Shown here: positions 2,303 to 60,209 of the stretch, piece by piece
Layout of the letters: every line of letters starts with the position of its first letter
How positions within the stretch are numbered: the first letter of the stretch is position 1
Program-made: the position numbers and the translations under genes
Source of the DNA: a virus
Direction: 5' to 3' (one strand)
IMG/VR virus record: IMGVR_UViG_3300000956_000011
Span: 1,212 to 65,211 of that record
DNA: 64,000 nucleotides
The notes under the pieces: generated by a model
Told to the model about the DNA's origin: nothing
The model's database searches: none
Seen by the model: the letters and a program-made list of their open reading frames with translations, nothing else

Positions 2303-3318
2303 ACACCCACTCTCGTGATTCTGTCCACGTACACAGCACGGAGGGGACCGGACTTTGTGATTGCCCTACGCGGGTCGATTTTCAGCATAGCGGGGTCTAG
2401 CTGCTCGAAGAATTCGATGTATGGTCCCATTGGGCCTTGCTTGTACCTGACGAGCCTGGGGTCGTCGTGCACGTAGGCTTCCTGGGCGCTGGTGATGAGC
2501 CCGTGCTGCCCTTCGAGCCTGGCAACCCAGTGGATCATCTGCCCCGTGACCTTGCCGACCACTTCATCGCCAGTGGCTTCCGCGGAGAAGTACGGCCTAC
2601 CAAGGTTTTCCATGGCACGAGCCTCCCGAGTGATCTTCGACTCGCGTTGCCCGCGCTCGCCCAGGTAGGTCTTGCCCCAGGCAGCACGCCAGAGCCTACG
2701 GGCGAAGGCGCTGCCCTTGCGCCCTTGCTTGTTGCTGGCCCCACTGCCGGGCAGGTGCAGCTCGTAAGCCACGCGCCACCAACTGTCGCCGCGCTCGCGC
2801 AGCTTGCGCACTTCGACGGCCAGGTCGTACACGTAGTCATCGGTACAAGCAAACAACCGCTCCTCGGCCCAGCGGTCGCCCTCGCCAACATTGTCGACAC
2901 CGCGCTCAACGATGATCTTGTCAACGGCCTCCTCCACTTGGCGCAGCAACCTTTCGCGCGCTGCCGCTTGGCTGGCGCGAGCTGCGGCCGAGGTCGGGGG
3001 AGGGGAGGTCAGCGGGTCATCGTCCTCTTCATCGTCCATGTCGTCTTCGTCAACCGGCTCGGCCTGCGGCTCCGGTTCGGGATCATCCACGTAACCCGTG
3101 CAGGCGCACAGTTCCACGTCCTCCATGGTCCACTCAAGCGGTGCTCCGAGGGCCTCGAGCAACTCTTCGTCGCTGTTTTCAAGATCAACCTTAACGAGCT
3201 CTTTCGTTGCGCCTGCGGCCAACGAACGGATGGTCTCTTTACACCCTGGTTTGTGGATGACCCAATACTCATCGTCGCTCTGGGTCATCATTACCAGGGT
3301 GTAGCGCTTCGCTGCCAT
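2299..3318 (-). CDS. hypothetical early protein, possible central HTH (339 aa)
   Basis: GAGAGGCAGCACAATG leader; acidic linker; helical segment VRKLRERGDSWWRVAYELHL resembles an HTH. Confidence 0.72.
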   Translation of the reverse strand: MAAKRYTLVMMTQSDDEYWVIHKPGCKETIRSLAAGATKELVKVDLENSDEELLEALGAPLEWTMEDVELCACTGYVDDPEPEPQAEPVDEDDMDDEEDDDPLTSPPPTSAAARASQAAARERLLRQVEEAVDKIIVERGVDNVGEGDRWAEERLFACTDDYVYDLAVEVRKLRERGDSWWRVAYELHLPGSGASNKQGRKGSAFARRLWRAAWGKTYLGERGQRESKITREARAMENLGRPYFSAEATGDEVVGKVTGQMIHWVARLEGQHGLITSAQEAYVHDDPRLVRYKQGPMGPYIEFFEQLDPAMLKIDPRRAITKSGPLRAVYVDRITRVGV

Positions 3319-3356
3319 TGTGCTGCCTCTCTGCCTGGCCTACTACACGAATCTTA

Positions 3357-3674
3357 CTACGCGGTGCGCGTCTCCCAGCGCTCCATTGCTTCCTTTTTGA
3401 CCGCAGGCACATCGGCCGCGTAGGGGTTCGTCAGGATGGCGATGGCAAAGGCCAGCCCTTGCGCCTGCCCGCGCAGCTCACCCCATTCCTTCAGCACGCC
3501 ATACCACTGCTTCGCGCGTGGCCTGCCCGATTCCTGGATTTCTTCCGAGAAGGTGTCGATGTCCGGTGCGCCCTGCTCCATCAGCTGGTCCATGCAGTCG
3601 TCCAGGTCCTGCCAAAGGATGTCAAGAACGCTCATGCCTGCGTATGGGTGTTTGGCTTCGGCTTCGGCTGCCAT
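3357..3674 (-). CDS. hypothetical protein (105 aa)
   Basis: Start moved to ATG 3674, which follows SD GGAGAGG. Confidence 0.68.
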   Translation of the reverse strand: MAAEAEAKHPYAGMSVLDILWQDLDDCMDQLMEQGAPDIDTFSEEIQESGRPRAKQWYGVLKEWGELRGQAQGLAFAIAILTNPYAADVPAVKKEAMERWETRTA

Positions 3675-3757
3675 TGTGATCCTCTCCAATTCTCGCCACG
3701 TGCGGGCGTCTTGGGTGAGCGGCTGGTGGTACCGCTGCCAGGTAAAAGCGACGACGG

Positions 3758-4003
3758 TCACCGCTTCTGGCCCTTGGCCACGGGTGGCTTGCCGCGTAGG
3801 TCGGGGCGTGGCGCGTGCGGTGCGTTGTGCCACTGGACGATACGTCGGTGTTGTTCGGCAGTTCCCTCGACGACCATGGTGTGCGCGCAGTTGAACTGGA
3901 TGGGGCTGACGACCGCCACTACGCCAAAGCGCTCCTCGATCATGTCGCGTACCTGCTCGGGCGTCTCGTTGTCTTGCAGTAGCACGTCATACTTTCGTTG
4001 CAT
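3758..4003 (-). CDS. hypothetical protein (81 aa)
   Basis: Start moved to ATG 4003, which follows SD GAGAGGG. Confidence 0.6.
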   Translation of the reverse strand: MQRKYDVLLQDNETPEQVRDMIEERFGVVAVVSPIQFNCAHTMVVEGTAEQHRRIVQWHNAPHAPRPDLRGKPPVAKGQKR

Positions 4004-4163
4004 GATTTTCCCTCTCAGATCGATTGTGCGTCGATGTAGCTGGTTGGTTCGGGTTAGGGTACCCCGCGAGCCTTGCGTCGGCCCAGCGGGGCAGCCAGGG
4101 GCTAGCACGGTAGCTTCGTACCGACCCCGGGCGGCTTGGTGGCTACCCGGGGTCCGGCGAAGG

Positions 4164-5057
4164 CTAGTGCTTGGCCCAGCACTCCGGGCCGATGCCGCGT
4201 GCGCGGCTCTCATCGTTGGTAAGCGGACGGCCGCAGTCACTGCATTCGCCCAGCTCGTCCGCGTACCGCTTGGCCGCAGCCTGCGGGTCGACCAGCACTG
4301 CGCTCAGGTAGGTCGTCAGCGTCGCGGGTGCCTTGACTGGGTAGCCCGTGTCGCTACCCATGCTGTCCACGAACACACGACCAGCCCAGCGACCGCTCGT
4401 TACCTTCTTGATGCGCAGGAACTTGGTGACGCCATCGACCACAATGGCGAACCGACCCTCGACGCGCGGACTGCCACCCTGGCGCGTCTCGCGGTGCAAG
4501 TGCTCAGCCACGCGCTCACGCAGTCCGTCAACCTGCTTCCACGGGTCCTCGGGTGGGGCAGGAACGCGCACACCTGGCAGTCCGGGCACGTCGACCATAC
4601 CGTCATCGCGTGCTGCCTCGTGGCGCGCTGCGATGACCTTGCAATCCGCGCGGTGCCACTTCTCGCCCGCCCAGCCCTTGGCGCAGCCACGGCAGTAGTT
4701 CGGGTCACCGTGCAGCGTCTCGCTGATCCGCTCGCGGGTGGTCAGGTCGCCCTGGGCAATGCGGTATTCGGCTGCCGCGTTCAGGTCGGTGAAGACCAGC
4801 TCAACCTCGGTCAGGTCGGGGGTGCGGCTGGTCTCGCCGGTACGGGTGTCCGCACGCACCTGCGTGACGCCAATCCAGGTACCGGCCGTAGGCACGTGCT
4901 CTACCGTCCAGTAGCCGTCTTCGTCGGCCAGCGTCACCACGTTGCCGACTGCCAACAAGGGCAGCTCCGGGGTGAGCGTGGTCACGGTACCTTGCCCGCA
5001 GGTACGCACGTGCGCCACGGTCTGACCGGTCTTGTGGCAGTGTCCGCAGGTAGCCAT
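4164..5057 (-). CDS. DUF6011-type Zn-ribbon protein (297 aa)
   Basis: C-terminal CSDCGRPLTNDESRARGIGPECW matches the DUF6011 signature; N-terminal CGHC...HVRTC; ATG 5057 abuts the upstream gene. Confidence 0.75.
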   Translation of the reverse strand: MATCGHCHKTGQTVAHVRTCGQGTVTTLTPELPLLAVGNVVTLADEDGYWTVEHVPTAGTWIGVTQVRADTRTGETSRTPDLTEVELVFTDLNAAAEYRIAQGDLTTRERISETLHGDPNYCRGCAKGWAGEKWHRADCKVIAARHEAARDDGMVDVPGLPGVRVPAPPEDPWKQVDGLRERVAEHLHRETRQGGSPRVEGRFAIVVDGVTKFLRIKKVTSGRWAGRVFVDSMGSDTGYPVKAPATLTTYLSAVLVDPQAAAKRYADELGECSDCGRPLTNDESRARGIGPECWAKH

Positions 5058-5059
5058 GA

Positions 5060-5251
5060 TCAGAACTCCAGGACGCTGTCGGCGGAAACGGTGTACTCGC
5101 CACCACGGTAGATCACGCAGTACGCGGTCGTGGGGGACAGGTCGTTGGACGTGCGGCTGAACCCTTCGCGGACGACGCCCTCGCGGATGTTGCCGTTGTA
5201 CTCGAACATGACCTTGGTGCCCTTGGCGATGGACGGGTGCGTGGTGCTCAT
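5060..5251 (-). CDS. small beta-barrel (SH3/KOW-like) protein (63 aa)
   Basis: Strong SD CAGGAGG; KGTKVMF...EGVV...YCVIY...YTV all-beta pattern. Confidence 0.7.
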   Translation of the reverse strand: MSTTHPSIAKGTKVMFEYNGNIREGVVREGFSRTSNDLSPTTAYCVIYRGGEYTVSADSVLEF

Positions 5252-5283
5252 TGCTGCCTCCTGGTTGCTGCCTGCCTACACGT

Positions 5284-5313
5284 AGGGTATCGCACCCGAT
5301 AGAGAGATCGCTA
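5284..5313 (-). promoter_or_regulatory. putative early promoter TAGCGA-N18-TACCCT
   Basis: Same geometry and spacer elements (TCTC, GGGTGCGA) as the promoter at 6710-6739; A/T-rich upstream element. Confidence 0.6.
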
Positions 5314-5344
5314 CGGATTGGAGAGAATTTTCTCGTCTCGCCTG

Positions 5345-5725
5345 CTAGTTGCCGATCATCTCCGTGCCGACCAGCACCATCCCGTCCCAGTTCCACTTGC
5401 CGACCGGCTCGTCACGCCTGCACTCAGCCAGCGCGGCCCAGTAGTCGGCCAGCTCAGCGTCCGGGGTGTTGCCGTTCAGGTGCTGCCGCACGTAGGCAAG
5501 CTCGCCCTTGCTGGCGTCCACGCTGTACGCAGGGATGCCGCGCTTCGTGCGCTCACGGTAGTAGCAAGGCGTCTCGTAGTGCTGCACCTGCGTAGGGGCT
5601 GCGGTCTCAGCGCGGTGGGCGGGAGTCGTCTCTTCCTGGACGTGCAGGTACAGCGGCAAGGCAACGGTCAGCATGACCACGGCCAGCACATCACGCGCTG
5701 GCTGCCAGGGCTTACGTCGGAACAT
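5345..5725 (-). CDS. hypothetical membrane-anchored protein (126 aa)
   Basis: N-terminal hydrophobic segment VLAVVMLTVALPLYL; SD CAGGAG. Confidence 0.65.
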   Translation of the reverse strand: MFRRKPWQPARDVLAVVMLTVALPLYLHVQEETTPAHRAETAAPTQVQHYETPCYYRERTKRGIPAYSVDASKGELAYVRQHLNGNTPDAELADYWAALAECRRDEPVGKWNWDGMVLVGTEMIGN

Positions 5726-5752
5726 GATCTTTCTCCTGTCTAGGTTTGACGA

Positions 5753-5950
5753 TCAGACTGTGGTGGCGATACGTTCGTTGGTCAGGATGTTGATGGCCGA
5801 CTGCTTGGTGCGCAGCCCGGTCAGGTAGGCGTAGTTTCCCTTCTCAGTGGCCGCCAGGTACCAGCCTCGTTCGCCCTTAGCGACATAGCCCACCTCGTGC
5901 CCGTCGACGCTGACGTAAGTGCGACCCTGGCTGGTGATAGTGGTGATCAT
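5753..5950 (-). CDS. hypothetical protein (65 aa)
   Basis: ATG 5950 after SD AAGGAG and its own promoter. Confidence 0.7.
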   Translation of the reverse strand: MITTITSQGRTYVSVDGHEVGYVAKGERGWYLAATEKGNYAYLTGLRTKQSAINILTNERIATTV

Positions 5951-5987
5951 GGCTGGCTCCTTGATGCGTTGCTGCCTTACATGGAAG

Positions 5988-6017
5988 AGTCTAGCACGTC
6001 CTCTCGAGAACGCGCCA
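5988..6017 (-). promoter_or_regulatory. putative early promoter TGGCGC-N18-TAGACT (extended -10, TGn)
   Basis: TAnnnT -10 preceded by TG; TTCTCG in the spacer; A-rich upstream element. Confidence 0.6.
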
Positions 6018-6041
6018 GACTTTTCTTCCACGAGTCTTGTT

Positions 6042-6677
6042 TCAGCTGGTCAGGGCCTCGAACTTGACGTCGGACAGCGCGTGCAGGGTGCGCCGCGTCG
6101 GGTGCCCGTCGTGCTGGACGACCAGCAACACCCGGTTCAGGCCACTGGCGTCCGGGGTGCGCACGCTGGCGTCGATCACCTTGCCGCGCACCGTGCGGCC
6201 CATGCTGCGCACGATGGCCATCTGGTGCGACCACGCGGCCGTCGCCAGCTTTTGCGCTGCCGCGTTCGCGGCCAGTCCCGCCGTGTTCAGCGCGTCCGCC
6301 ACACCGTGCACGCTCTCGGCCAGCACGCGCAGCGTGTCACCAATGGCCTGCGGGGTGGTGGCCTCGTGCATGGCCCCCTGGAACACCTGCGCGTCTTCCG
6401 GGTCCACGTCGGCCCCCTGCTCGGCCCAGTGGCCGGTCATGTCCTCGGCCTCGTCCACGCGTGCGTCCTGCCGCGCCATGTCGGCCTCGCGGGCGTCACC
6501 CTCGACCCCGTCCAGGTCGTGCGCCTCGCTGGTCAGGTACCACGCGCCCCGGTCGTCCCAGATCAGCTCGCGGCTGACCAGCGCCTTGACCGTGGTGGCG
6601 CGCACGCCCTCCGTCAGGCCGGTCTTGGCGATGATGTTCAGCGCCGAGATCATGGTGGGGGTGATGTTGCTGGCCAT
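6042..6677 (-). CDS. hypothetical protein, N-terminal winged-helix-like and C-terminal SH3-like segments (211 aa)
   Basis: ATG 6677 after CAGGAGG; TTVKALVSRELIW...WYLT wing-like pattern. Confidence 0.72.
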   Translation of the reverse strand: MASNITPTMISALNIIAKTGLTEGVRATTVKALVSRELIWDDRGAWYLTSEAHDLDGVEGDAREADMARQDARVDEAEDMTGHWAEQGADVDPEDAQVFQGAMHEATTPQAIGDTLRVLAESVHGVADALNTAGLAANAAAQKLATAAWSHQMAIVRSMGRTVRGKVIDASVRTPDASGLNRVLLVVQHDGHPTRRTLHALSDVKFEALTS

Positions 6678-6709
6678 TTGGTCCTCCTGGTTGTTGCTGC
6701 CGTACGTGA

Positions 6710-6739
6710 AGGGTATCGCACCCGTAACGAGAAGCGTTA
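6710..6739 (-). promoter_or_regulatory. putative early promoter TAACGC-N18-TACCCT
   Basis: Shares GGGTGCGATACCCT (14 bp) with the 5284 promoter; inverted repeat GTAACG-N5-CGTTAC over the -35. Confidence 0.6.
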
Positions 6740-6758
6740 CAGGTTTCTCCAAGATCTT

Positions 6759-7070
6759 CTACTGGCTCGGTGCGATGGCGCGCAACCAGCACTCCAAGTC
6801 CCGCTTGCCACGTGCCTTCTTGCGGTCACCCGTGGCCCAGTAGATCTCGAACCGGTAGGTAGCGCTGCCCCACGCGCGGGTCCAGCAGATACGGGTGTCG
6901 TACCAGCGGTTTCCCGGGTGCGTGAAGGTCATCTGCGCGCAGTGCTGGTCGGACTTGTCCGTGGGCACCAGGCCAACCTTCTCGGCTAGGGCTGCCATGT
7001 GCCGCAGCTCGCGGCAGGTGCGCCGCGCCTGCGGGGTCTGTGCGTGGGTGCACTTGCTGTGCGCGCTCAC
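6759..7070 (-). CDS. H-x2-C-x-H...C Zn-finger-like early protein, paralog of 7539-7847
   Basis: HSKCTHAQTPQARRTCRE versus HTECTHAHTPQARRTCRE. Confidence 0.72.
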   Translation of the reverse strand: MSAHSKCTHAQTPQARRTCRELRHMAALAEKVGLVPTDKSDQHCAQMTFTHPGNRWYDTRICWTRAWGSATYRFEIYWATGDRKKARGKRDLECWLRAIAPSQ

Positions 7071-7073
7071 TGG

Positions 7074-7238
7074 TCACGCCACCCGGTACACGTGCGCCGT
7101 ACGCGCAGCCGCGTCCACCGCCACCACGCGGAAACGGTACGGCAACTCGGGGTAGATGTAGCCGACTACCACGTCCCCGATCTTGGGTTCCGACGCCCGC
7201 ACTGCCACCTTCAACGTACCGTTGATGATCGAGAACAC
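7074..7238 (-). CDS. small SH3-like protein (54 aa), absent from the ORF track
   Basis: GTG 7238 after CAGGAGG; MFSIINGTLKVAVRASEPKIGDVVVGYIYPELPYRFRVVAVDAAARTAHVYRVA; fills the gap between promoter and next gene. Confidence 0.65.
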   Translation of the reverse strand: MFSIINGTLKVAVRASEPKIGDVVVGYIYPELPYRFRVVAVDAAARTAHVYRVA

Positions 7239-7276
7239 CGCTGCCTCCTGGATTGCTGCCTGGCCGTACCCCGCTC

Positions 7277-7306
7277 AGCTTCTCATGGATGGACGAGAGA
7301 TCGCAA
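7277..7306 (-). promoter_or_regulatory. putative promoter TTGCGA-N18-GAAGCT
   Basis: Near-copy of 9358-9387 (CCTTGCG..TCTCGTCCA...TGAGAAGCTGA). Confidence 0.6.
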
Positions 7307-7511
7307 GGACTTTGTTCGACAAGGCTGGTTGCCCGCCTCGGCTGACATGCCCCTGTTCGGCCCTCAGATGGCCGTAGGCTCGAGAAGTGGCTTGGTGGGT
7401 ACTGGTACCCGACCGTTCGATTATGTCGATTTCCCCAGGTAGACAGCCGACTATGTCGATATCAAGATCTTCGACATATGTGTGCAAGTGCAAACTACCT
7501 CGACCTGGCAA

Positions 7512-7531
7512 AGCCCCGCCGTAGCGGGGCT
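7512..7531 (-). terminator. intrinsic terminator
   Basis: AGCCCCGC-TACG-GCGGGGCT followed by TT, directly after the stop at 7539. Confidence 0.75.
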
Positions 7532-7538
7532 GGCCTGC

Positions 7539-7847
7539 CTAAGCGCGCTTGGCCAACACGTTCAGCCAGGCGGTCAACATGTTGATGCCCTGGTACCGAC
7601 GCGGCGCACCTTCCGGGGTGATGATGAAGAACCGGTACCCACCTTGATCGTAAGTGCGGGTCCACACAAGCCGTAGGCCCAGCTGGTCCCTCGGGTTCCA
7701 TATGATCACTTGCGCGAAGTTGCCCTCACTGATTTCCTGTGCCTGCAAGCCCTTACTGCGGGCAAGGGCTGCGTACCTGCGGGTCTCCCGACAAGTGCGT
7801 CGCGCTTGTGGGGTATGTGCGTGTGTGCATTCGGTGTGAGATCTCAT
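7539..7847 (-). CDS. H-x2-C-x-H...C Zn-finger-like early protein, paralog of 6759-7070
   Basis: SD CAGGAGG; paralogous over its full length (WTR, YRF and WL motifs shared). Confidence 0.75.
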   Translation of the reverse strand: MRSHTECTHAHTPQARRTCRETRRYAALARSKGLQAQEISEGNFAQVIIWNPRDQLGLRLVWTRTYDQGGYRFFIITPEGAPRRYQGINMLTAWLNVLAKRA

Positions 7848-7979
7848 GCTGGCCTCCTGGCTTGCGGGCAGTGGTTCCGCCCTCGACCGAAACTACGGTC
7901 TGTAACCACTGGCGCTTAGCCGTACCCTCGAAAGTGTACTCGGGTAACCTAAAGGGGTTAGAGACCCAGCAACGTCAAA

Positions 7980-8001
7980 CAGCCCCGCCGGAGCGGGGCT
8001 G
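7980..8001 (-). terminator. intrinsic terminator
   Basis: CAGCCCCGC-TCCG-GCGGGGCTG followed by TTT; same stem as 7512-7531. Confidence 0.75.
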
Positions 8002-8009
8002 CCTGGTGC

Positions 8010-8201
8010 CTAGAGCTGGACGATGACCTTGCAGGTATCCTCGGTGAGCTCCGCCTGCTTGCCTCGGGTGATCATTTCATCGTAGAACCCCGCTGCCCTG
8101 GTGCTGATCGGGAACTCGACCCGAACCTGACCCCAGTCTGACCGCGCGGTAACCGTACCGCCGTGCTGGGCGACGATGCTGTCGAACTTGGCTTGCTGCA
8201 T
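8010..8201 (-). CDS. hypothetical protein (63 aa)
   Basis: ATG 8201 after GGAGG; sits in its own promoter-terminator cassette. Confidence 0.7.
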   Translation of the reverse strand: MQQAKFDSIVAQHGGTVTARSDWGQVRVEFPISTRAAGFYDEMITRGKQAELTEDTCKVIVQL

Positions 8202-8234
8202 TGCCTGGCCTCCACTGTGTAGTTTGCTATGACC

Positions 8235-8263
8235 ATAATGCGTGGAAAACCGTTGGGGCACAA
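8235..8263 (-). promoter_or_regulatory. putative promoter TTGTGC-N17-CATTAT
   Basis: Upstream AAAGTCCTTG is identical to that of the 7277 promoter. Confidence 0.5.
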
Positions 8264-8332
8264 GGACTTTCCCTGGACGGTCTTCGGCCCGTCCCACCTA
8301 CCAGGCGAGACGGGCCAGAAAATCTTGGACGG

Positions 8333-9307
8333 TTAGTGGCTGCGGGGCTTGCGTGCGACCGCAGGCGCAGCGTTGCCCGCGAACTTGCAGCTGGGCATAC
8401 CGCCTGGGCGGTGCGAGCCCAGGCCATTGCAGAAGCAGACCGCCAGGGTGGCACCCTTGGCTACGGCCGCCACGCTTGCCGCAAGGTCGGCCTCCAAGTC
8501 GTCCGCTGTGGTGCCAACGGGCTCGCACTGCGCGCCAGGTGCCTCGCCCACCTGCACGTCCCGGGCAGCCTTCTCAGCCTTGATCTCGGCAATGGTGGCG
8601 GCCACCTCGTCCTCCGTGGGCTGCGGGGTGCTGGTGAAGCGCGCCCGGTTGCGCGCAAGCAGGATGGTGTCCTTGCACTGCGGGCAGTCAGTGTTCGGCT
8701 CGTCCGCGTGGTGCCCGTCGGCGTGCTCGTTTTCCAGGCCAGCCTGGTCGTAACACGTGACGCACATGTCCTCGTAGCCCCGTGACCCGTACACCTTGGC
8801 CGCGCTGTTGCGGGCAGTCACGCCCTTGCCACACACGGTGCACTTGCGGCCAGCGCGGGTGCTGGTCACGGGCTGCGGGTCAACCACCGGGGCAGGTGTC
8901 TCGTCCTCGTCACCGGCCAGCTCAACGACTTCCGCCTCGGTCTCGGTCCAGGCGGTGTCCCACACCGGGTTGCCCGCGCTGTCGAAGCTGAGCCCGTCCC
9001 AGTCACCGGACTCGATCTCTTCGGTCAGCTCCAGCCCTTCCAGGTACCGACGGATGGTGGCCGTGCTCACCCACAGCTCCCGCGCCACCGCCTGCACGCT
9101 GGCCCCGTCCATGTCCACCCGATCGCTGACGTACTCGGCGGCCTCGCGCAGCGTGCCGTCCAGCGGGTACAGCTCCAGGTGGCGCATGGTGCCGTTGGCG
9201 CGGACGCGGTAGGCGGTGAGCAGACCCTGCTCCAGCATGACGCGCGGGGTGCGGTACGGGCTGTCGGCCGTGAACTTGGCGTTGGGGGCCAGTGCGTACT
9301 CGGTCAT
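8333..9307 (-). CDS. HTH plus Zn-finger DNA-binding protein (324 aa)
   Basis: SVQAVARELWVSTATIRRYL is an HTH; CTVC...CVTC...H..GHH...CPQC; C-terminal CFC..H..C. Confidence 0.78.
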   Translation of the reverse strand: MTEYALAPNAKFTADSPYRTPRVMLEQGLLTAYRVRANGTMRHLELYPLDGTLREAAEYVSDRVDMDGASVQAVARELWVSTATIRRYLEGLELTEEIESGDWDGLSFDSAGNPVWDTAWTETEAEVVELAGDEDETPAPVVDPQPVTSTRAGRKCTVCGKGVTARNSAAKVYGSRGYEDMCVTCYDQAGLENEHADGHHADEPNTDCPQCKDTILLARNRARFTSTPQPTEDEVAATIAEIKAEKAARDVQVGEAPGAQCEPVGTTADDLEADLAASVAAVAKGATLAVCFCNGLGSHRPGGMPSCKFAGNAAPAVARKPRSH

Positions 9308-9357
9308 TGTGCTGCCTTCCGGTGTGGGGCTGGCCTGCCTGCCTGCCCTGCCCCATC

Positions 9358-9387
9358 AGCTTCTCACGCCTGGACGAGATCACGCAA
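9358..9387 (-). promoter_or_regulatory. putative promoter TTGCGT-N18-GAAGCT
   Basis: Near-copy of 7277-7306. Confidence 0.6.
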
Positions 9388-9451
9388 GGAATTTCTCGTT
9401 TCTCCAGGTCAGGGGCCGACTGCCGTAGCAGCCAGCCCCCGCCCGCCTACG

Positions 9452-9691
9452 TCACGCCTGCTTGCAGCCTGGCCAGAAGGTACCCACCTGGCACTTCGGG
9501 TAAAGATCGCTGGGGTGGCGCTCCGTGTCAGTGCGCACAGTACCCTGCTCGTCCGTGCACTTCATGGTGATCGTTGTGGTGTCGCGCGCGGTGATGTTGC
9601 ACGACTCGTTCTTTGCCTTGCCACCGCATTCGCTTGCCCCGGTTAAGACCAGGGCTGCGATGAAGGCGAGGGCGGGGACCGTGGATTTCAT
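9452..9691 (-). CDS. putative lipoprotein (79 aa)
   Basis: Signal peptide MKSTVPALAFIAALVLTGASEC ending in Cys; four further Cys. Confidence 0.68.
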   Translation of the reverse strand: MKSTVPALAFIAALVLTGASECGGKAKNESCNITARDTTTITMKCTDEQGTVRTDTERHPSDLYPKCQVGTFWPGCKQA

Positions 9692-9693
9692 TT

Positions 9694-9843
9694 CTACTTG
9701 TCCTCCGGGCAGATGTATTCTGTTTTGTCCAGGTCGTACGTGCAGTCACTTACGTCCTTCGGTTGGCACGCAGGCACCCTCGCCATGATCACTCCGATGA
9801 CGACGCAGGCTGCGGCCAGCCAGAAGAACACGCGGAACCCCAT
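9694..9843 (-). CDS. small membrane protein (49 aa), absent from the ORF track
   Basis: MGFRVFFWLAAACVVIGVIMARVPACQPKDVSDCTYDLDKTEYICPEDK; SD GAAAGG; abuts the lipoprotein start. Confidence 0.62.
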   Translation of the reverse strand: MGFRVFFWLAAACVVIGVIMARVPACQPKDVSDCTYDLDKTEYICPEDK

Positions 9844-9874
9844 GAATTGCCTTTCGATTGGAAACTACTACACA

Positions 9875-10726
9875 TCAGCCGTTCAGCTGACGGGTCTGTG
9901 TGGCCTGAACTTTCTTCCCGCCCAGGTCCGCGCGCTCGGCCGCAGCCTGTCCGGCTCGCCGACCAGCTTCGCTGTTGTCATCCCTGCGGTAACCGGCTTT
10001 GCCGACCTTGCCGACCTGTGCGGCCACATGGTCGTTAACCAGCGCGGTACGATCCCGCAGCACCAACGCAGTACCAGGCGTACCGGTCTCGGCCGCAGCC
10101 TCGTTGCGCTGACCTGCCTCCTTCAGTCGCGTGTACACGCGCCGGACCCAACCGTAGGCGTAGCTCACGCGCCAAGCCTGGATGCCCTCGACGTAAGAGC
10201 AGTACTTGTCTTCGTCCGCAGCCATCATCGTCTGCATCTGGAGTATCAGGCTGGTGTAGAGCTGGTTGATGAACCGCAAGTCGCCCTCGTGCGCGAACAC
10301 CCGCACGTAGGCTCGTCGGTTCAGCTTGCTGCCCTTGCCATCCTTGCGCGGCTGCCACTCACCCATCAGGATAGCGCGACCTCGATACAAGTCAGCAAGC
10401 CCAGCGATCAGTTCGCGCTTGGCCTTGATCAACGGGGTGTTCGACTCCCGGCAGAAGTCCGCGGAGACGATTTCTTCCGCGCTTTCGTTGCCCGCCTTGG
10501 CAAGCATGGCGTCTTCGATAGCGTACTTGAGCTGAAGAGCTGCGGCTTTGGCAAGGGCCTCGTCACGGGCTGCTTCGTCACCACGCTTAGCCGCTTGCTC
10601 GGCACCATCTAGTAGACCCTGGATGATACTGGCCATGCGCTCCAGCTTGGACCTCTCTGTCTTGGCCTTGGCCGCGCCAGACTCGTACTGGTCGTTGATG
10701 AACTGCGCGTGGTCGTCGTTGCTCAT
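9875..10726 (-). CDS. DUF2786-domain protein (283 aa)
   Basis: IIQGLLDGAE...EALAKAAALQLKYAI matches DUF2786; C-terminal G..AG..A..RADL. Confidence 0.75.
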   Translation of the reverse strand: MSNDDHAQFINDQYESGAAKAKTERSKLERMASIIQGLLDGAEQAAKRGDEAARDEALAKAAALQLKYAIEDAMLAKAGNESAEEIVSADFCRESNTPLIKAKRELIAGLADLYRGRAILMGEWQPRKDGKGSKLNRRAYVRVFAHEGDLRFINQLYTSLILQMQTMMAADEDKYCSYVEGIQAWRVSYAYGWVRRVYTRLKEAGQRNEAAAETGTPGTALVLRDRTALVNDHVAAQVGKVGKAGYRRDDNSEAGRRAGQAAAERADLGGKKVQATQTRQLNG

Positions 10727-10836
10727 GGGTTGCTGCCCTTCGTGTTGCTGCCTGGTCTTCGACCGCAGTCTACCGCATGGGACCCCTGTCGAACCTTCCA
10801 CGTTCTTGAAATGGAGGACTTACCAGTACATGCGAA

Positions 10837-10950
10837 GACCCCGGCACTGGGCGAGGCAGCAACAGAATCGCTCCAGTACCGGGGTCAACCGGCGACGCCT
10901 CCCGAGGGGCGCTGCGGCAGGTGGGCCAGGCAGGGCACCAGATGCCAGTA
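10837..10950 (-). ncRNA. candidate small regulatory RNA complementary to early-gene leader motifs (strand uncertain)
   Basis: Non-coding gap with an 18-bp hairpin (one G-U pair, one bulge) whose loop is UUCUGUUGCUGCC; upstream TGGCAT-N17-CATACT at 10982-10954. Confidence 0.5.
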
Positions 10951-10990
10951 ACCAGTATGCCTACTGACCGGCCGTCATGCCACTAGTCGG

Positions 10991-11374
10991 TCACAGTGGA
11001 GGCGCTTCTCCTCGGGTAACTTGCCCCACGGACACCTGTCGGGCGAATGGGTAACCCTTCTCCCCTTTGCCCACAACGAATCCGATGGCAGCCAGTCCGG
11101 CCAGAACCACCTCGATGGTCTCGGCCTGGGTCAGGCCGCCGGGAATCAAGACGTACAGAACGGGTAAACCGGCCGTCATGAAGGAGACGAAACCCTTGGC
11201 GTAATGGGAAACTCCTCCTTCCAGGTTGGGCACCAACCACACACCGAACGCCCCGACCGCCGTACCCGCGACGACGATCCATTCCTGGACGTCGATGGAT
11301 CCATCAGTGAGCGCTGCGTACACAGCTGTCAGAATGGCGACAGCCAACTGACCCCATGCCTTGATATTCTTCAT
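10991..11374 (-). CDS. holin (127 aa)
   Basis: Several TM helices; directly downstream of the endolysin. Confidence 0.75.
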   Translation of the reverse strand: MKNIKAWGQLAVAILTAVYAALTDGSIDVQEWIVVAGTAVGAFGVWLVPNLEGGVSHYAKGFVSFMTAGLPVLYVLIPGGLTQAETIEVVLAGLAAIGFVVGKGEKGYPFARQVSVGQVTRGEAPPL

Positions 11375-45085: not shown

Positions 45086-45162
45086 GGTGCTGCCTTTCAG
45101 CATGAGGTGCCCTGCCTGATCCTTCATACGCCAGCCAACCAGGCCAGCGATAGTTGACCCGC

Positions 45163-46171: not shown

Positions 46172-47416
46172 TTAACGGGCAGCGCCCGGGTCCAGCAGCC
46201 ACTCGGCGGGGCGAATGGCAGGGATAATGTCGTGCCTGGTTTCCTTGTCGGCCCACATGAACAGCTCTGGGTGCGGCTGGTCCCACTTGCGTTTTCCAAG
46301 ATCGGCCTGAACCGACCACTGTGAACTGTCCCGGCCGATGGCTGCGTTCGCGTCCACCCGATCGCGAATGCTGCACTTACGGTCGAAATTGGCCTTGAAC
46401 TCGCACTTGCCCGTCAGGTAGCACACCGGTCGAAACAAGTCCGCGATGGCCTCGTACTGCCAGCGATCGCTATCCCATGCCAGGTCGAGGAAACTCTCAA
46501 CGTGCTCGTCGCCGAGATTGCGCGCTGCCGTCTTGAGACCAGCATACGGGCTGTACTCGCGAATGGCCTGTGCGATCTGCGCGAACACCAGCCGCCACTC
46601 GAACTGAGCCTGCGTGCACAACCGGTTCCCTGCGTGGTCCAGCAGGGCACGCAGGTCCGTGCAGTAGTGCAGGCGCGTGAGAGTGTTGTGCGGCAACAGA
46701 CCCCGCGCGTCCTCGGCGGGCATCCCCATGTCCACCAGCTTCTTGTATTCGCGGCCGATGACCTTGACCGCATTGTCCCAGTGCTCGCGCTGCCGCTCGG
46801 CGTCGCTGGCCAAGTCTTCCTCCTCCCAGCTCACCCGACTGCCCTCCGTGCCCGCCAGGGACGGAGGCAGCCCAACGGGCATGTCCTCCTTCACCGCGAA
46901 GCGAAGGCTTTCCTGCGCGTACACCGCCGTGCGCTGCCGGACCATCTGGTGCGTGAAGGCACGCGTGACACCCTCGATCATGAAGTGGAACTTGACGAAC
47001 TCGTACGGGGCCTTGAGCTTCGTGGCTTTCAACTGCTCCACGTATTCCTGACGCTCCGCGTGCGTCACATCCCGCAAGCTACGCGCCACCTCGCCCTTGT
47101 ACATCTTGGAAGGAGCTGCGATCACGGCCAGGGGGTCGGTCGTCATCCACAGGAGATGTACCTTGGGACCCTGCGTAGCGTCGATGGGCTCCGCCGTGAA
47201 CATGGCGCTGTCCGCCCACTTCTGCACGGTCTTTCCGGGCACCACACGGTCTGCTTCGTTCTCCAGATTCGCGTAATACTGGCGCTCCGCGAAGGACTGC
47301 TCCCGACCAGGTCTCTCGTTTTCCACCACTTCTCCGTTCAGTTCAGCCATGATCTGCGTCACGGCCTCGTCCATGTACTTGCGAGCCAACCGAAGCCCGT
47401 CTGACCCCGGTCTCAC
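46172..47416 (-). CDS. thyX: flavin-dependent thymidylate synthase-like protein (variant motif; start may be internal)
   Basis: EGVTRAFTHQMVRQRTAVYAQESLRF; EDARGLLP; RLCTQAQFEWR. Confidence 0.85.
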   Translation of the reverse strand: MRPGSDGLRLARKYMDEAVTQIMAELNGEVVENERPGREQSFAERQYYANLENEADRVVPGKTVQKWADSAMFTAEPIDATQGPKVHLLWMTTDPLAVIAAPSKMYKGEVARSLRDVTHAERQEYVEQLKATKLKAPYEFVKFHFMIEGVTRAFTHQMVRQRTAVYAQESLRFAVKEDMPVGLPPSLAGTEGSRVSWEEEDLASDAERQREHWDNAVKVIGREYKKLVDMGMPAEDARGLLPHNTLTRLHYCTDLRALLDHAGNRLCTQAQFEWRLVFAQIAQAIREYSPYAGLKTAARNLGDEHVESFLDLAWDSDRWQYEAIADLFRPVCYLTGKCEFKANFDRKCSIRDRVDANAAIGRDSSQWSVQADLGKRKWDQPHPELFMWADKETRHDIIPAIRPAEWLLDPGAAR

Positions 47417-47673
47417 TTGGCACCAACGCGAGGGCGTCTGCCACTACCCGCACAATGCCGACAGGTCGCGCGGCCACCTAGCGCTCCGACGCGCCACCCC
47501 TGGCCCTTGCAGTGCCAGCACTTCTTCTCTGGCCCGAAAATCAGGCTCAGCTTCCACACAGCGGCGGCTATCCCCAGGAGCAAGACGATGGACCACGGCG
47601 CAGGAGTGGGTGCCCCCAGCACCACGAACAACGCGATGATGCCGCCGACGACGAGAACAGGTCCGACGATCAT
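47413..47673 (-). CDS. 2-TM protein with DnaJ-type Zn-finger repeats (86 aa)
   Basis: CWHCKGQG and CRHCAGSG after two TM helices. Confidence 0.72.
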   Translation of the reverse strand: MIVGPVLVVGGIIALFVVLGAPTPAPWSIVLLLGIAAAVWKLSLIFGPEKKCWHCKGQGWRVGALGGRATCRHCAGSGRRPRVGAK

Positions 47674-48623: not shown

Positions 48624-48712
48624 GATGCTGCCTTTCACTGCCTGGTGAGCCGGTACGTGATGCACAGTACCGGCTCAGCTACAGGCTTGCGGTAGAACGA
48701 AAGAAGTGGAAC

Positions 48713-59691: not shown

Positions 59692-59943
59692 TCACGCATC
59701 CCCTTCTCCTTCTTGGAACAACCGCAGGGCAGCCTCTTCGTCGCATTCCCCAGCCGGATATTCACCATGGACATGCCCCAGTTTTTCGCCTGCCTGCGCA
59801 GCCTCCCAATGAAGATTTTCGTGATGGTCTAACTTTTCCGCCAAAGTACCCGCTCCCATTTGCCCGTCGTGGCAGCGGAACAGGTGCTGGTTGATTTGCT
59901 GGCGCGCTGCGAAGTATGAGCGTGGCCGCTTAGGGCCAGGCAT
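59692..59943 (-). CDS. hypothetical His-rich protein (83 aa)
   Basis: Abuts both neighbours. Confidence 0.55.
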   Translation of the reverse strand: MPGPKRPRSYFAARQQINQHLFRCHDGQMGAGTLAEKLDHHENLHWEAAQAGEKLGHVHGEYPAGECDEEAALRLFQEGEGDA

Positions 59944-60209
59944 CAGCGCTTGAGAAGTAGCTGCGTCAACCGCTTCGCGCTAGGGGCTGCGGTACCACGG
60001 GGGAGGGAGGTCACTGGAGTAGCGTCTATCTCCTCTGGGGTGACGCCCAGGTGCGCCGCAATACCGGCTCGCCATATCTCGTGGTGAAGGTCCTTCTTGG
60101 TGCAACCCGAATGCCGCGCCACCTGGCTAAGCAGGAACTGCATCTCCGCGGACACACGCACAACAACGCGTGGTCCTGGTCCATCTGGTTTTTGGGCGTC
60201 GTCTGCCAT
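59943..60209 (-). CDS. ribbon-helix-helix DNA-binding protein (88 aa)
   Basis: RVVVRVS beta strand, then helix EMQFLLSQVARHSG, then helix KKDLHHEIW; SD GAGGAGG. Confidence 0.68.
   Translation of the reverse strand: MADDAQKPDGPGPRVVVRVSAEMQFLLSQVARHSGCTKKDLHHEIWRAGIAAHLGVTPEEIDATPVTSLPRGTAAPSAKRLTQLLLKR

What the first reader, a model, noticed from the sequence alone, without database searches (positions are those of the whole stretch)
10837..10982. Candidate phage small RNA whose loop and 5' arm match the ribosome-binding regions of many early genes
Seen in sequence: the holin-DUF2786 gap holds, on the minus strand, GACCCCGGUACUGG-A-GCGA-[UUCUGUUGCUGCC]-UCGC-CCAGUGCCGGGGUC (10837-10886). Its loop presents GUUGCUGCCUC, the exact complement of GAGGCAGCAAC. 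That motif (AGGCAGCA, often GGCAGCAAC) lies within about 35 nt of the start codon, often fused to the SD, at 3321-3327, 5251-5260 (GAGGCAGCAA, a 10-nt match from the SD to the ATG), 5264-5273, 5968-5977, 6693-6701, 7253-7260, 9310-9316, 10729-10737, 10744-10753, 45088 and 48626. A second segment (minus strand CCCUGCCUGGCC, 10924-10935) complements GGCCAGGCAG in the leaders at 3331-3340 and 7256-7265, with 9 nt matching the 8201 leader. A promoter-like TGGCAT-N17-CATACT (10982-10954) would give an RNA of about 115 nt ending at the big hairpin. The motif is not complementary to the 16S anti-SD, so it is not simply a strong SD. Inference: a trans-acting multi-target antisense RNA that shuts off early (host-takeover) translation. 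Alternative: two other hairpins here have G-U pairs favouring the plus strand, so a plus-strand RNA could act as a CsrB-like decoy for a protein that binds GGCAGCAAC.
Basis: partly seen in the sequence, partly recalled or inferred. Interest (0 to 1): 0.88.

Follow-up and report, generated by a model that had tools for sequence, protein, structure and literature searches.

The report
Phage small RNA complementary to early-gene leaders
A family of uncultured soil phages carries a conserved, structured RNA gene of about 118 nt whose two hairpin loops are complementary to a short motif repeated in front of 11-18 early genes, which makes it a concrete candidate partner for "start-associated" motifs whose function has been open since 2011.

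Summary
Between the holin gene and the DUF7168/DUF2786 gene, on the minus (gene) strand, lies a ~118-nt three-hairpin RNA gene (about 10947-10830). It has its own promoter-like pair (TGGCAT-N17-CATACT) and ends in the hairpin 10886-10837.

All 13 syntenic relatives recovered through the neighbouring protein (55-78% identity) keep it:
- The stems covary: 94.6% of cells are paired, 18 of 31 pairs show double changes, and 0 of 500 shuffles reach this.
- 30 G·U cells against 2 A·C cells fix the strand as minus.
- The terminator loop always reads UGCUGCC, and the first loop reads CUGCC in 11 of 13.
- The promoter boxes are invariant at fixed spacing over a free spacer.

In the same genomes GGCAGCA occurs 5-18 times (11-18 in eleven of the twelve long loci) on the gene strand in the 10 kb downstream. 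It occurs 0-3 times upstream and 0-2 on the other strand, and 148 of 157 copies lie within 35 nt of a start codon.

More distant relatives lack both the RNA and the motif bias.

A structured RNA gene on the minus strand is well supported. Pairing with the leaders, and shut-off of early genes, is inferred and untested; no RNA data were available. The plus-strand decoy alternative is not supported.

The parts
10977..10982 (-). -35-like box TGGCAT of the RNA gene
   Evidence: TGGC is invariant in 13 of 13 relatives. It always lies 19 nt (TGGCNN + 17) before CATACT, over a spacer with no sequence conservation. It lies after the holin stop codon (10991-10993).
10954..10959 (-). -10-like box CATACT, within the invariant GGCATACT(G/A)GT
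   Evidence: Identical in 13 of 13 relatives. More distant genomes that carry a different RNA at this position still keep GGCATACT or GCCATACT.
10830..10947 (-). Predicted small RNA of about 118 nt. The 5' end is inferred from the -10 box (+/-3 nt) and the 3' end from the terminator tail.
   Evidence: Fold -65 kcal/mol, z = -3.54. Covariance model R1, built on 8 copies, finds the 5 held-out copies at E 3e-7 to 2e-11 and nothing else in 755 kb. 94.6% of cells are paired and 18 of 31 pairs have double changes. No Rfam family matches.
10916..10946 (-). Hairpin 1 (SL1), with apical loop CUGCCU at 10928-10933
   Evidence: The outer and inner stems covary: GGCA/UGCC against GGUGAG/CUCACC, GGCGAAC/GUUCGCC and GGAGCAC/GUGCUCC. 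The loop keeps CUGCC in 11 of 13 (CCGCC in L002, AUGCC in L016).
10892..10915 (-). Hairpin 2 (SL2), GCGCC...GGCGU
   Evidence: Helix 4: 3 of 5 pairs have double changes and 83% of cells are paired. Loop length and sequence are free.
10837..10886 (-). Hairpin 3 (SL3), terminator-like, with a 13-nt loop UUCUGUUGCUGCC at 10855-10867
   Evidence: 14 consensus pairs, 100% of cells paired, 5 pairs with double changes and 16 G·U cells. The loop core UGCUGCC is present in 13 of 13 while the stems differ. A U-rich tail follows in L015, L017, L067 and L068.
10767..10795 (-). First early promoter-like pair (GGTTCGAC ... TAGACT) after the RNA gene
   Evidence: TTCGA(C/G) and TAGA(C/G)T are conserved at this position in most relatives.
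10729..10753 (-). Leader of the DUF7168 gene with two motif copies: AGGCAGCAACA (10743-10753) and GGCAGCAAC (10729-10737). The ATG is at 10726.
   Evidence: 11-nt and 9-nt perfect complements of loop 3. Duplex -26.2 kcal/mol, z = -2.9 against shuffled loops. Ten of the twelve long loci compared carry two GGCAGCA copies in the first early leader.
9310..9317 (-). Motif copy fused to the SD, 2 nt before ATG 9307. The leader also holds (GGCA)4.
7240..7265 (-). Leader of gene 7238: GGCCAGGCAGCAAT plus GAGGCAGC
   Evidence: Complementary to loop 1 (10 nt) and to loop 3 (9 and 8 nt). Duplexes -25.5 and -24.4 kcal/mol.
6692..6701 (-). Motif copy GGCAGCAACA at the predicted 5' end of the 6677 transcript
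   Evidence: It lies 7 nt after a TAnnnT box (TACCCT-tcacgta-GGCAGCA type).
5968..5977 (-). Motif copy AGGCAGCAAC, leader of gene 5950
5251..5273 (-). Leader of gene 5251 with two 10-nt copies: AGGCAGCAAC and GAGGCAGCAA, the latter abutting the ATG
   Evidence: Duplex -25.6 kcal/mol, z = -2.5.
3321..3340 (-). Leader of gene 3318: GGCCAGGCAG plus GAGGCAGCA
   Evidence: Loop-1 duplex -27.1 kcal/mol, z = -4.5.
45088..45095 (-). Outlying SD-fused copy (gaaAGGCAGCAccATG) in the nucleotide-metabolism block
48626..48633 (-). Outlying SD-fused copy (gaaAGGCAGCAtcATG)

Best explanation
Shown: the holin/DUF7168 gap encodes a structured RNA of about 118 nt on the gene (minus) strand. It has three hairpins, its own sigma-A-type promoter boxes, and a strong terminal hairpin that also closes the late (lysis) operon.

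Inferred: it is a trans-acting antisense regulator.
- The 13-nt loop of the terminal hairpin (core UGCUGCC, here GUUGCUGCCU) and the apical loop of the first hairpin (CUGCC, here CUGCCUGGCC with its 3' arm) pair with the start-associated motif GGCAG(CAAC).
- That motif sits either at the predicted 5' end of the early transcripts or is fused to the Shine-Dalgarno sequence 0-5 nt before the start codon.
- Pairing would cover the SD/start region (some leaders offer a site to each loop) and so lower translation and/or stability of the early mRNAs.
- The RNA is made from its own promoter and is also the 3' end of late transcripts, so it would accumulate with time and act as a timer for early-gene shut-off.

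The direction of the effect (repression rather than activation or protection) is the least secure step.
For: RNA gene:
- 13 of 13 syntenic relatives, found through the neighbouring protein and not through the RNA, carry it.
- Model R1 recovers the five held-out copies.
- Covariation is strong: 94.6% paired, 18 of 31 pairs with double changes, 0 of 500 shuffles, and slid controls reach at most 47% paired. The structure-blind MAFFT/RNAalifold alignment shows the same terminal helix with 5 compensatory pairs.
- The strand is fixed by 30 G·U cells against 2 A·C cells.
- Promoter: TGGC and GGCATACT are invariant at fixed spacing over an unconserved spacer.

Link to the leaders:
- Both loops stay constant while their stems change and are predicted unpaired.
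- GGCAGCA occurs 5-18 times (11-18 in eleven of the twelve long loci) on the gene strand downstream, against 0-3 upstream and 0-2 on the other strand, in every relative. 148 of 157 copies lie within 35 nt of a start, in two modes: 0-5 nt and 14-20 nt.
- In the window's genome, 9-mers complementary to loop 3 occur at 16 gene-strand sites against 2 on the other strand and 2.2 for shuffled loops.
- Duplexes of -20 to -27 kcal/mol form with the 10726, 7238, 5950, 5251 and 3318 leaders (6677: -19.4).
- Relatives without the RNA (L088, L089, L009/L012, L014, L001) have no motif excess or strand bias.

Precedent in high-GC Gram-positives: the 6C sRNA binds many mRNAs through C-rich loops without a chaperone (PMC6486639).
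Against: - There are no expression data of any kind.
- Loop and motif are both invariant in their core, so there is co-conservation but no co-variation. Loop positions 5' of UGCUGCC differ between lineages (GU, CU, UU, GC) without a matching change in the leaders.
- Presence and absence of the RNA and of the motif bias look like one clade against the rest, so they may reflect a single evolutionary event.
- In L002 loop 1 reads CCGCC although the leaders still read GGCAG.
- The motif could have a primary role of its own (initial transcribed sequence, SD context). In Cluster K mycobacteriophages the analogous SAS motif is kept in genomes whose anti-SAS loop is deleted or different (Yuna, Keshu).
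- The U-tract after the terminator is weak in the window itself.
Confidence: 0.55

Rival explanations
1. The RNA gene is real, but the complementarity is not used for RNA-RNA pairing with the phage's own leaders. GGCAG(CA) would be a promoter-proximal or translation-initiation element with its own function. The RNA loops would bind something else, such as host mRNAs with GGCAG-like ribosome-binding regions or a protein, or the early leaders would act as a sponge for the RNA.
For: Half of the motif copies are simply SD plus spacer, and the other half sit at the predicted +1 to +10 of sigma-A-like promoters. There is no loop/leader co-variation beyond the core. Cluster K phages keep 17-20 SAS copies without an anti-SAS loop.
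Against: Two separate loops of one RNA are complementary to the one motif that is enriched about 15-fold in the adjacent early region. The anti-motif is otherwise almost absent from the gene strand (0-3 per 20 kb). RNA and motif bias co-occur in all 18 genomes examined.
Confidence: 0.2
2. GGCAGCA is a DNA site for a phage or host DNA-binding regulator, a stoperator-like asymmetric operator just downstream of the early promoters. The copies in the gap are further operators that happen to lie in hairpin loops.
For: The sites are asymmetric, in one orientation, in short intergenic regions next to promoters. This resembles the 13-bp stoperators of Cluster A mycobacteriophages (contrast drawn in PMC3203893). 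ESAS-type promoter modules recur here.
Against: This does not explain why the two reverse copies sit exactly in the apical loops of hairpins whose stems covary with G·U pairs on one strand. It also does not explain why many copies abut the start codon rather than the promoter. No candidate regulator was identified.
Confidence: 0.12
3. The element is only the terminator and 3' UTR of the late lysis operon. The loop match is a coincidence frozen by descent.
For: It lies directly after the last late gene, and the big hairpin looks like a terminator.
Against: The loops are invariant across relatives whose neighbouring protein is only 55-78% identical, while the stems and the spacer turn over. Two further hairpins and promoter boxes at fixed spacing are conserved. 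The only plus-strand copy of a 9-mer in 64 kb falls in a 13-nt loop.
Confidence: 0.05
4. One reading: a plus-strand RNA presenting GGCAGCAAC as a CsrB-like decoy for a motif-binding protein.
For: The plus-strand fold of the whole gap has a slightly better z-score (-2.68 against -1.47). In the window alone, one short hairpin pairs better on the plus strand.
Against: Across the family there are 30 G·U cells, which would be A·C mismatches on the plus strand, against 2 of the reverse kind. The promoter boxes and U-rich tails are on the minus strand. All genes are on the minus strand.
Confidence: 0.03

Closest known systems
Start-associated sequences (SAS/ESAS) of Cluster K mycobacteriophages and Cluster EF Microbacterium phages (PMC3203893, PMC7302621, PMC11373665, PMC12699233)
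   Same: A short asymmetric motif is repeated 10-20 times in one orientation, confined to non-structural/early genes, a few nt before start codons and overlapping the SD. It is often preceded by a repeated module that holds a SigA-like promoter. Its function was still called unknown in 2024-2025, and the 2011 paper asked explicitly for an RNA or protein partner.
   Different: The motif sequence is unrelated (GGCAGCA(AC) against GGGATAGGAGCCC or GGGAAAGGACCCC). A second class of copies sits at the predicted transcript 5' end. Here a conserved structured RNA with two complementary loops is identified next to the early region. No such partner has been described for SAS in the papers read.
6C/B11 sRNA of Actinobacteria (PMC6486639)
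   Same: A small multi-hairpin RNA that, in a high-GC Gram-positive, binds several mRNAs through C-containing apical loops near their ribosome-binding regions, without a known chaperone.
   Different: There is no sequence or model similarity (Rfam scans). The loops here read CUGCC and UGCUGCC rather than runs of six C. This RNA is phage-encoded, and the presumed targets are the phage's own early leaders.
Phage immunity antisense RNAs: P1/P7 c4 and P4 CI (own knowledge, not checked here)
   Same: A phage-encoded small RNA acts in trans on repeated complementary sites in the phage's own early transcripts, blocking ribosome binding (c4) or causing premature termination (CI).
   Different: Those belong to temperate elements, are processed from the target operon and have 2-3 target sites. 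This genome has no integrase, the RNA has its own promoter-like boxes, and there are 11-18 candidate sites on separate transcripts.
T4 RegA and RegB (own knowledge)
   Same: The proposed task is the same: global post-transcriptional shut-off of many early mRNAs through a short element in or beside their SD regions.
   Different: Those are proteins (a translational repressor and an endoribonuclease). Here the proposed effector is an RNA.
Intrinsic terminators of late operons
   Same: The third hairpin is a long GC-rich stem at the end of the lysis cassette, with a U-rich tail in some relatives.
   Different: An ordinary terminator does not need an invariant 7-nt loop core, two further conserved hairpins, or promoter boxes upstream.

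Membership tests
Any Rfam 15 family (including 6C, RF01066) | Score at or above the family's gathering threshold | tested here: not met
   No gathering-level hit in the whole window. With permissive filters on 10700-11050, only two miRNA models appeared, at E 0.45 and 1.6, far below their thresholds.
SAS/ESAS system of Cluster K mycobacteriophages | 13-bp consensus GGGATAGGAGCCC (at most 2 mismatches) | tested here: not met
   The motif here is GGCAGCA(AC). It is a different sequence, so this is not a member; it is an analogue.
SAS/ESAS system of Cluster K mycobacteriophages | Asymmetric, one orientation, within a few nt of start codons, restricted to non-structural genes | tested here: met
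   5-18 copies (11-18 in eleven of the twelve long loci) on the gene strand downstream, against 0-3 upstream and 0-2 on the opposite strand. 148 of 157 lie within 35 nt of a start, with the main mode at 0-5 nt.
SAS/ESAS system of Cluster K mycobacteriophages | A subset preceded by a repeated upstream module containing a SigA-like promoter (ESAS) | tested here: met
   Recurrent modules such as GTAACG-N17-GATACCCTTCACGTA-GGCAGCA and TCCTTGCG...GTGAGAGACT precede the upstream class of copies. Promoter activity itself is inferred.
Trans-acting base-pairing sRNA | A discrete transcript with its own promoter and terminator | tested here: inconclusive
   The promoter boxes are invariant at fixed spacing over a free spacer, and a terminator-like hairpin is conserved with covariation. 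No RNA data were available.
Trans-acting base-pairing sRNA | Conserved, accessible seed complementary to conserved target sites | tested here: met
   Loops UGCUGCC (13 of 13) and CUGCC (11 of 13) have an unpaired probability of about 0.9. The target motif is conserved and enriched in every relative.
Trans-acting base-pairing sRNA | Seed/target co-variation, or experimental compensatory rescue | tested here: not met
   The core is invariant on both sides. The flanking loop positions vary without a matching change in the leaders. The experiment cannot be done with these tools.
Intrinsic terminator | GC-rich stem-loop followed by a U-tract on the transcribed strand | tested here: inconclusive
   The stem is very strong. 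The tail is UCUUCGCAU in the window, but AUUUUUAU, GAUUUAU, ACUUUAU and UUUCUUUAU in L015, L017, L067 and L068. The generic scan did not list it because the loop exceeds 8 nt.
P1 c4 / P4 CI type immunity RNA | Temperate element, with the RNA processed from the operon it controls | tested here: not met
   There is no tyrosine or serine recombinase in the complete 65.4-kb genome, and the RNA has its own promoter-like boxes.

The most novel reading that the evidence does not exclude
'Anti-SAS' RNAs would be a recurrent actinophage device: a phage-encoded structured RNA presents, in apical hairpin loops, the complement of the start-associated motif that marks its early or non-structural genes, and so sets the timing or level of their translation.

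Support beyond this family: in Cluster K mycobacteriophage Anaya, the single reverse-oriented SAS noted in 2011 lies in the apical loop (CCUCCUAUCC) of a hairpin. That hairpin sits in an unannotated, highly structured gap (z = -5.96) that is conserved in 142 Cluster K records behind an invariant TAGACT box.

Limits: Yuna and Keshu keep 17-20 SAS copies without that loop. Another soil phage with ten GACAGCCGGGAGGCA start motifs has no reverse copy.
Probability: 0.3. Interest if true: 0.9.

Novelty: new variant of a known kind. Interest (0 to 1): 0.8.

Why it matters
Start-associated motifs are one of the oldest unexplained regularities of actinobacteriophage genomes. They are conserved beyond what ribosome binding needs, and their discoverers asked whether an RNA or a protein reads them.

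This family supplies a specific, conserved RNA with the right complementarity, placed at the late/early boundary. If it works as proposed, it would be an RNA counterpart of T4 RegA/RegB: one small RNA that switches off a dozen separately transcribed early genes.

The parallel in Cluster K mycobacteriophages makes the idea testable in a cultured system (Mycobacterium smegmatis; BRED mutagenesis; RNA-seq reported for Adephagia and ZoeJ) rather than only in metagenomic sequence.

It also adds a well-supported new structured RNA family that is absent from Rfam.

Tried and rejected
- **Annotated phage collection.** megablast, blastn and tblastn with the locus and the DUF7168 protein gave no match. 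Only the terminase finds relatives, at 47-49% identity (Arthrobacter and Microbacterium phages). The host is therefore only inferred to be actinobacterial.
- **IMG/VR protein scans.** Scans with the lysin and the 324-aa early protein found nothing.
- **DNA pattern scans of IMG/VR.**
  - A loose pattern gave 47 stretches. The 46 searched with model R1 all failed it, so they are chance matches; the 47th, L048, is the contig already held as L005 and was not searched.
  - A stricter, loop-blind pattern returned only the contig already known.
- **RNA evidence.** No RNA run was listed for the region. The DNA holders are soil metagenomes.
- **Seed/target co-variation.** Lineages with loops CUUGCUGCC, UUUGCUGCC or AGCUGCUGCC do not show matching leader extensions. 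L005 leaders keep only GGCAG.
- **Own-promoter family.** A first search for similar promoters in the window used a wrong spacer length and is void. I did not repeat it, so whether other genes share the TGGC-N19-CATACT type remains open.
- **Generic promoter/terminator scan.** It does not see these high-GC promoters or the 13-nt-loop hairpin.
- **Plus-strand decoy.** Rejected.
- **Coding explanation for the gap.** Rejected: there are 1-2-nt indels and compensatory stem changes.
- **Generalisation to a third SAS-like system (L014/G001).** No reverse copy above chance.
- **A -35 box for the Cluster K element.** It could not be placed at a standard spacing, so only the TAGACT box is claimed.

Full report
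**What the window is**

The 64-kb window is nearly all of a complete 65.4-kb virus genome from a soil metagenome.
- It has 60% G+C and all genes are on the minus strand.
- It encodes DnaE, a primase fused to an MCM-like helicase, ThyX, and a terminase 47-49% identical to those of Arthrobacter and Microbacterium phages.
- It has no tyrosine or serine recombinase.
- Read along the gene strand, the order is replication genes, structural genes, lysis genes ending with a 127-aa holin-like gene (11374-10991), a 264-nt gap, then a DUF7168/DUF2786 gene (10726-9875), and then about 10 kb of short genes separated by promoter-like gaps.

The finding concerns that gap.

- The minus strand of 10886-10837 forms the stated hairpin with a 13-nt loop UUCUGUUGCUGCC.
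- GGCAGCAAC occurs 8 times against 0.98 expected. Seven copies are on the gene strand, and the single opposite copy is the hairpin loop. AGGCAGCA occurs 12 times against 2.8 expected.
- All the listed leader sites are real.
- GGCCAGGCAG is exact at 3331-3340 and 7256-7265, and its complement lies at 10924-10933.
- The predicted 118-nt RNA (10947-10830) folds into three hairpins at -65 kcal/mol, z = -3.54. Both complementary segments are in loops predicted about 90% unpaired.

**Relatives**

The annotated phage collection has nothing close. The DUF7168 protein, however, has 152 metagenomic homologues.

I fetched loci through that protein, so the sampling is blind to the RNA. Twelve of them (L002, L003, L005-L007, L015-L018, L066-L068; 55-78% protein identity) have the same holin / gap / DUF7168 synteny. 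Every one carries the element.

**Structure and strand**

- A covariance model built on eight copies finds the five held-out copies at E 3e-7 to 2e-11. It finds nothing else in 755 kb, including the 46 chance hits of a loose pattern scan that were searched.
- On the resulting alignment, 94.6% of cells form standard pairs and 18 of 31 pairs show changes on both sides. No shuffle of 500 reaches any of the five measures, and sliding the 3' partners drops pairing to 34-47%.
- That alignment is fitted to the model. The structure-blind MAFFT/RNAalifold run already shows the terminal helix with five compensatory pairs.
- The first hairpin changes its stem wholesale between lineages (GGCA/UGCC, GGUGAG/CUCACC, GGCGAAC/GUUCGCC, GGAGCAC/GUGCUCC) while keeping CUGCC at its tip.
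- There are 30 G·U cells and only 2 A·C cells, so the folded strand is the gene strand.
- U-richer tails follow the last hairpin on that strand in four relatives.

**Promoter**

In 13 of 13 copies, TGGC lies exactly 19 nt before CATACT, inside an invariant GGCATACT(G/A)GT. The 16-17 nt between the boxes share no sequence. The boxes lie after the holin stop codon, so coding constraint does not explain them.

This is the signature expected of a -35/-10 pair, but promoter activity is inferred. If it is not a promoter, the same RNA would still exist as the 3' end of the late transcript.

**The target motif is a family trait**

- In the eleven other long relatives (the 3.3-kb L007 aside), GGCAGCA occurs 5-18 times (11-18 in all but L005) on the gene strand in the roughly 10 kb after the RNA gene. 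It occurs 0-3 times in the 10 kb before it and 0-2 on the other strand. About 1 per 10 kb would be expected from base composition (my estimate).
- Of 157 copies, 148 lie within 35 nt of the start of an ORF of at least 40 codons. The distances fall into two modes.
  - Class A abuts the start codon: (GAAA/GAGA/GGAA/AGGA)GGCAGCA-N0-5-ATG. It overlaps the Shine-Dalgarno sequence.
  - Class B lies 14-20 nt upstream and is followed by a canonical CCAGGAGG. It sits 7-16 nt after TAnnnT-type -10 boxes of recurrent promoter modules, at or near the predicted 5' end of the transcripts.
- The more divergent L005/L007 lineage keeps only GGCAG in its leaders, and both of its RNA loops still contain CUGCC.
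- Loop 3 of the window RNA (GUUGCUGCCU) is the exact complement of the class B consensus AGGCAGCAAC.
- Nine-mers complementary to loop 3 hit 16 gene-strand sites in the genome, against 2 on the other strand and 2.2 for shuffled loops.
- Seed-only duplexes with the 10726, 7238, 5950, 5251 and 3318 leaders are -20 to -27 kcal/mol (6677: -19.4).

**Co-occurrence**

More distant relatives with a DUF7168 homologue (L088, L089, L009/L012, L014, L001/L011; 41-55% identity) give no R1 hit and show no GGCAG(CA) excess or strand bias.

RNA and motif therefore go together in all 18 genomes examined. The pattern is compatible with a single gain or loss, so it counts as one event, not eighteen.

**Mechanism**

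Steps shown:
- a conserved structured RNA on the gene strand;
- conserved accessible loops;
- a conserved complementary motif in early leaders.

Steps inferred:
- transcription from its own promoter;
- loop-leader pairing;
- occlusion of the SD/start region, with reduced translation or stability;
- accumulation over time, from its own promoter plus late read-through ending at the same terminator, giving delayed shut-off of early genes.

When the whole gap is folded as one RNA, the first leader pairs with the loop-1 region. Late read-through transcripts could therefore also be kept from translating the first early gene in cis.

Weak points:
- No RNA data exist.
- There is no seed/target co-variation beyond the invariant core.
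- Loop 1 is altered in L002.
- The sign of the effect is unknown.

**Comparison with what is known**

- No Rfam family matches.
- The leader motif behaves like the start-associated sequences of Cluster K mycobacteriophages and Cluster EF Microbacterium phages. These are asymmetric, in one orientation, next to start codons of non-structural genes, and often behind a repeated module that holds a SigA-like promoter. The 2011 description left open whether an RNA or a protein reads them (PMC3203893). Papers of 2020-2025 still call the role unknown and mention no antisense partner (PMC7302621, PMC11373665, PMC12699233).
- The proposed mode of action is that of multi-target sRNAs with C-containing loops in high-GC Gram-positives, such as 6C (PMC6486639). 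Among phages it recalls the P1 c4 and P4 CI antisense RNAs (own knowledge).
- In task it resembles T4 RegA/RegB (own knowledge).
- It is not a member of any of these families (see the membership table).

**A lead followed outside the window**

- In Anaya that copy lies in the 385-nt gp96-gp97 gap, and 16 forward copies lie in the right arm.
- The gap folds with z = -5.96, and the anti-SAS (CCUCCUAUCC) is the apical loop of a long hairpin.
- The region is conserved in 142 Cluster K records and is mostly unannotated.
- In nine diverse phages an invariant TAGACT box, a first hairpin and the anti-SAS hairpin align, with several G·U pairs on the gene strand and some compensatory changes.
- The loop is kept in Anaya, Adephagia, Validus, Peanam and Amelie, and is degenerate in Ekdilam and Amgine.
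- It is deleted in Yuna and different in Keshu, although those genomes keep 17-20 SAS copies.
- A third phage (L014) has ten GACAGCCGGGAGGCA start motifs but no reverse copy.

An anti-motif RNA is therefore not a universal companion of such motifs. The motifs probably have a primary role in initiation, which the RNA, where present, would modulate.

**Verdict**

The structured RNA gene is real (about 0.9). Its role as an antisense regulator of the early leaders is the best explanation but is unproven (about 0.55). It is a new variant of a known kind of regulator. Interest is high because it offers a testable partner for a long-unexplained class of phage motifs.

Noticed in passing
L069:39683-40067 (Mycobacterium phage Anaya JF704106, record 59682-60066); also L070-L077: The single reverse-oriented SAS of Cluster K1 mycobacteriophages sits in the apical loop of a hairpin. 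The hairpin lies in a conserved, unannotated, highly structured gap near the right genome end, behind an invariant TAGACT box. The loop is absent in Yuna and different in Keshu, although both keep 17-20 SAS copies.
   Followed up: partly
L014:3700-11110 (IMGVR_UViG_3300049002_000008): This is a different start-associated motif. GACAGCCGGGAGGCA occurs ten times, always 4-7 nt before a start codon and all on one strand. No reverse copy above chance exists in the complete 62.5-kb genome.
   Followed up: partly
L088:9300-9680 and L089:9293-9642: In more distant relatives the same late/early gap keeps the box GGCATACT or GCCATACT, but it is followed by a different GC-rich hairpin RNA that R1 does not detect. 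Their early genes are tightly packed and lack the GGCAGCA motif.
   Followed up: partly
window 3300-10800, minus strand: At least three recurrent promoter-like modules precede the early genes: GTAACG-N17-GATACCCTTCACGTA; TCCTTGCG(N)ATCTC...GTGAGA(A/G)(G/A)CT; and TTCGA(C/G)...TAGA(C/G)T. The second type also occurs in distant relatives that lack the RNA (L001, L009).
   Followed up: partly
window 47416-47460, minus strand (ThyX start region): The ThyX translation-initiation region gives one of the strongest predicted duplexes with loop 3 (-26.0 kcal/mol, z = -3.4), although it lies far from the early block. SD-fused motif copies also occur at 45088 and 48626 in the nucleotide-metabolism block.
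   Followed up: no
L089:9440-9540 and L001:5390-5480: A conserved non-coding stretch (CTCTGACCAGGGGAAATCGACAGAA ... GGTCGGGTGCCAGTGCC ... TTCTCGAGCCTACGTCG) is shared by two distant relatives in the gap before their early promoter. Its function is unknown.
   Followed up: no
genome position beyond the window's right end (window coordinate about 64129, minus strand): The longest match to loop 3 in the genome (12 nt, AGGCAGCAACAG) lies 2 nt before the ATG of an 88-codon ORF just outside the window.
   Followed up: no
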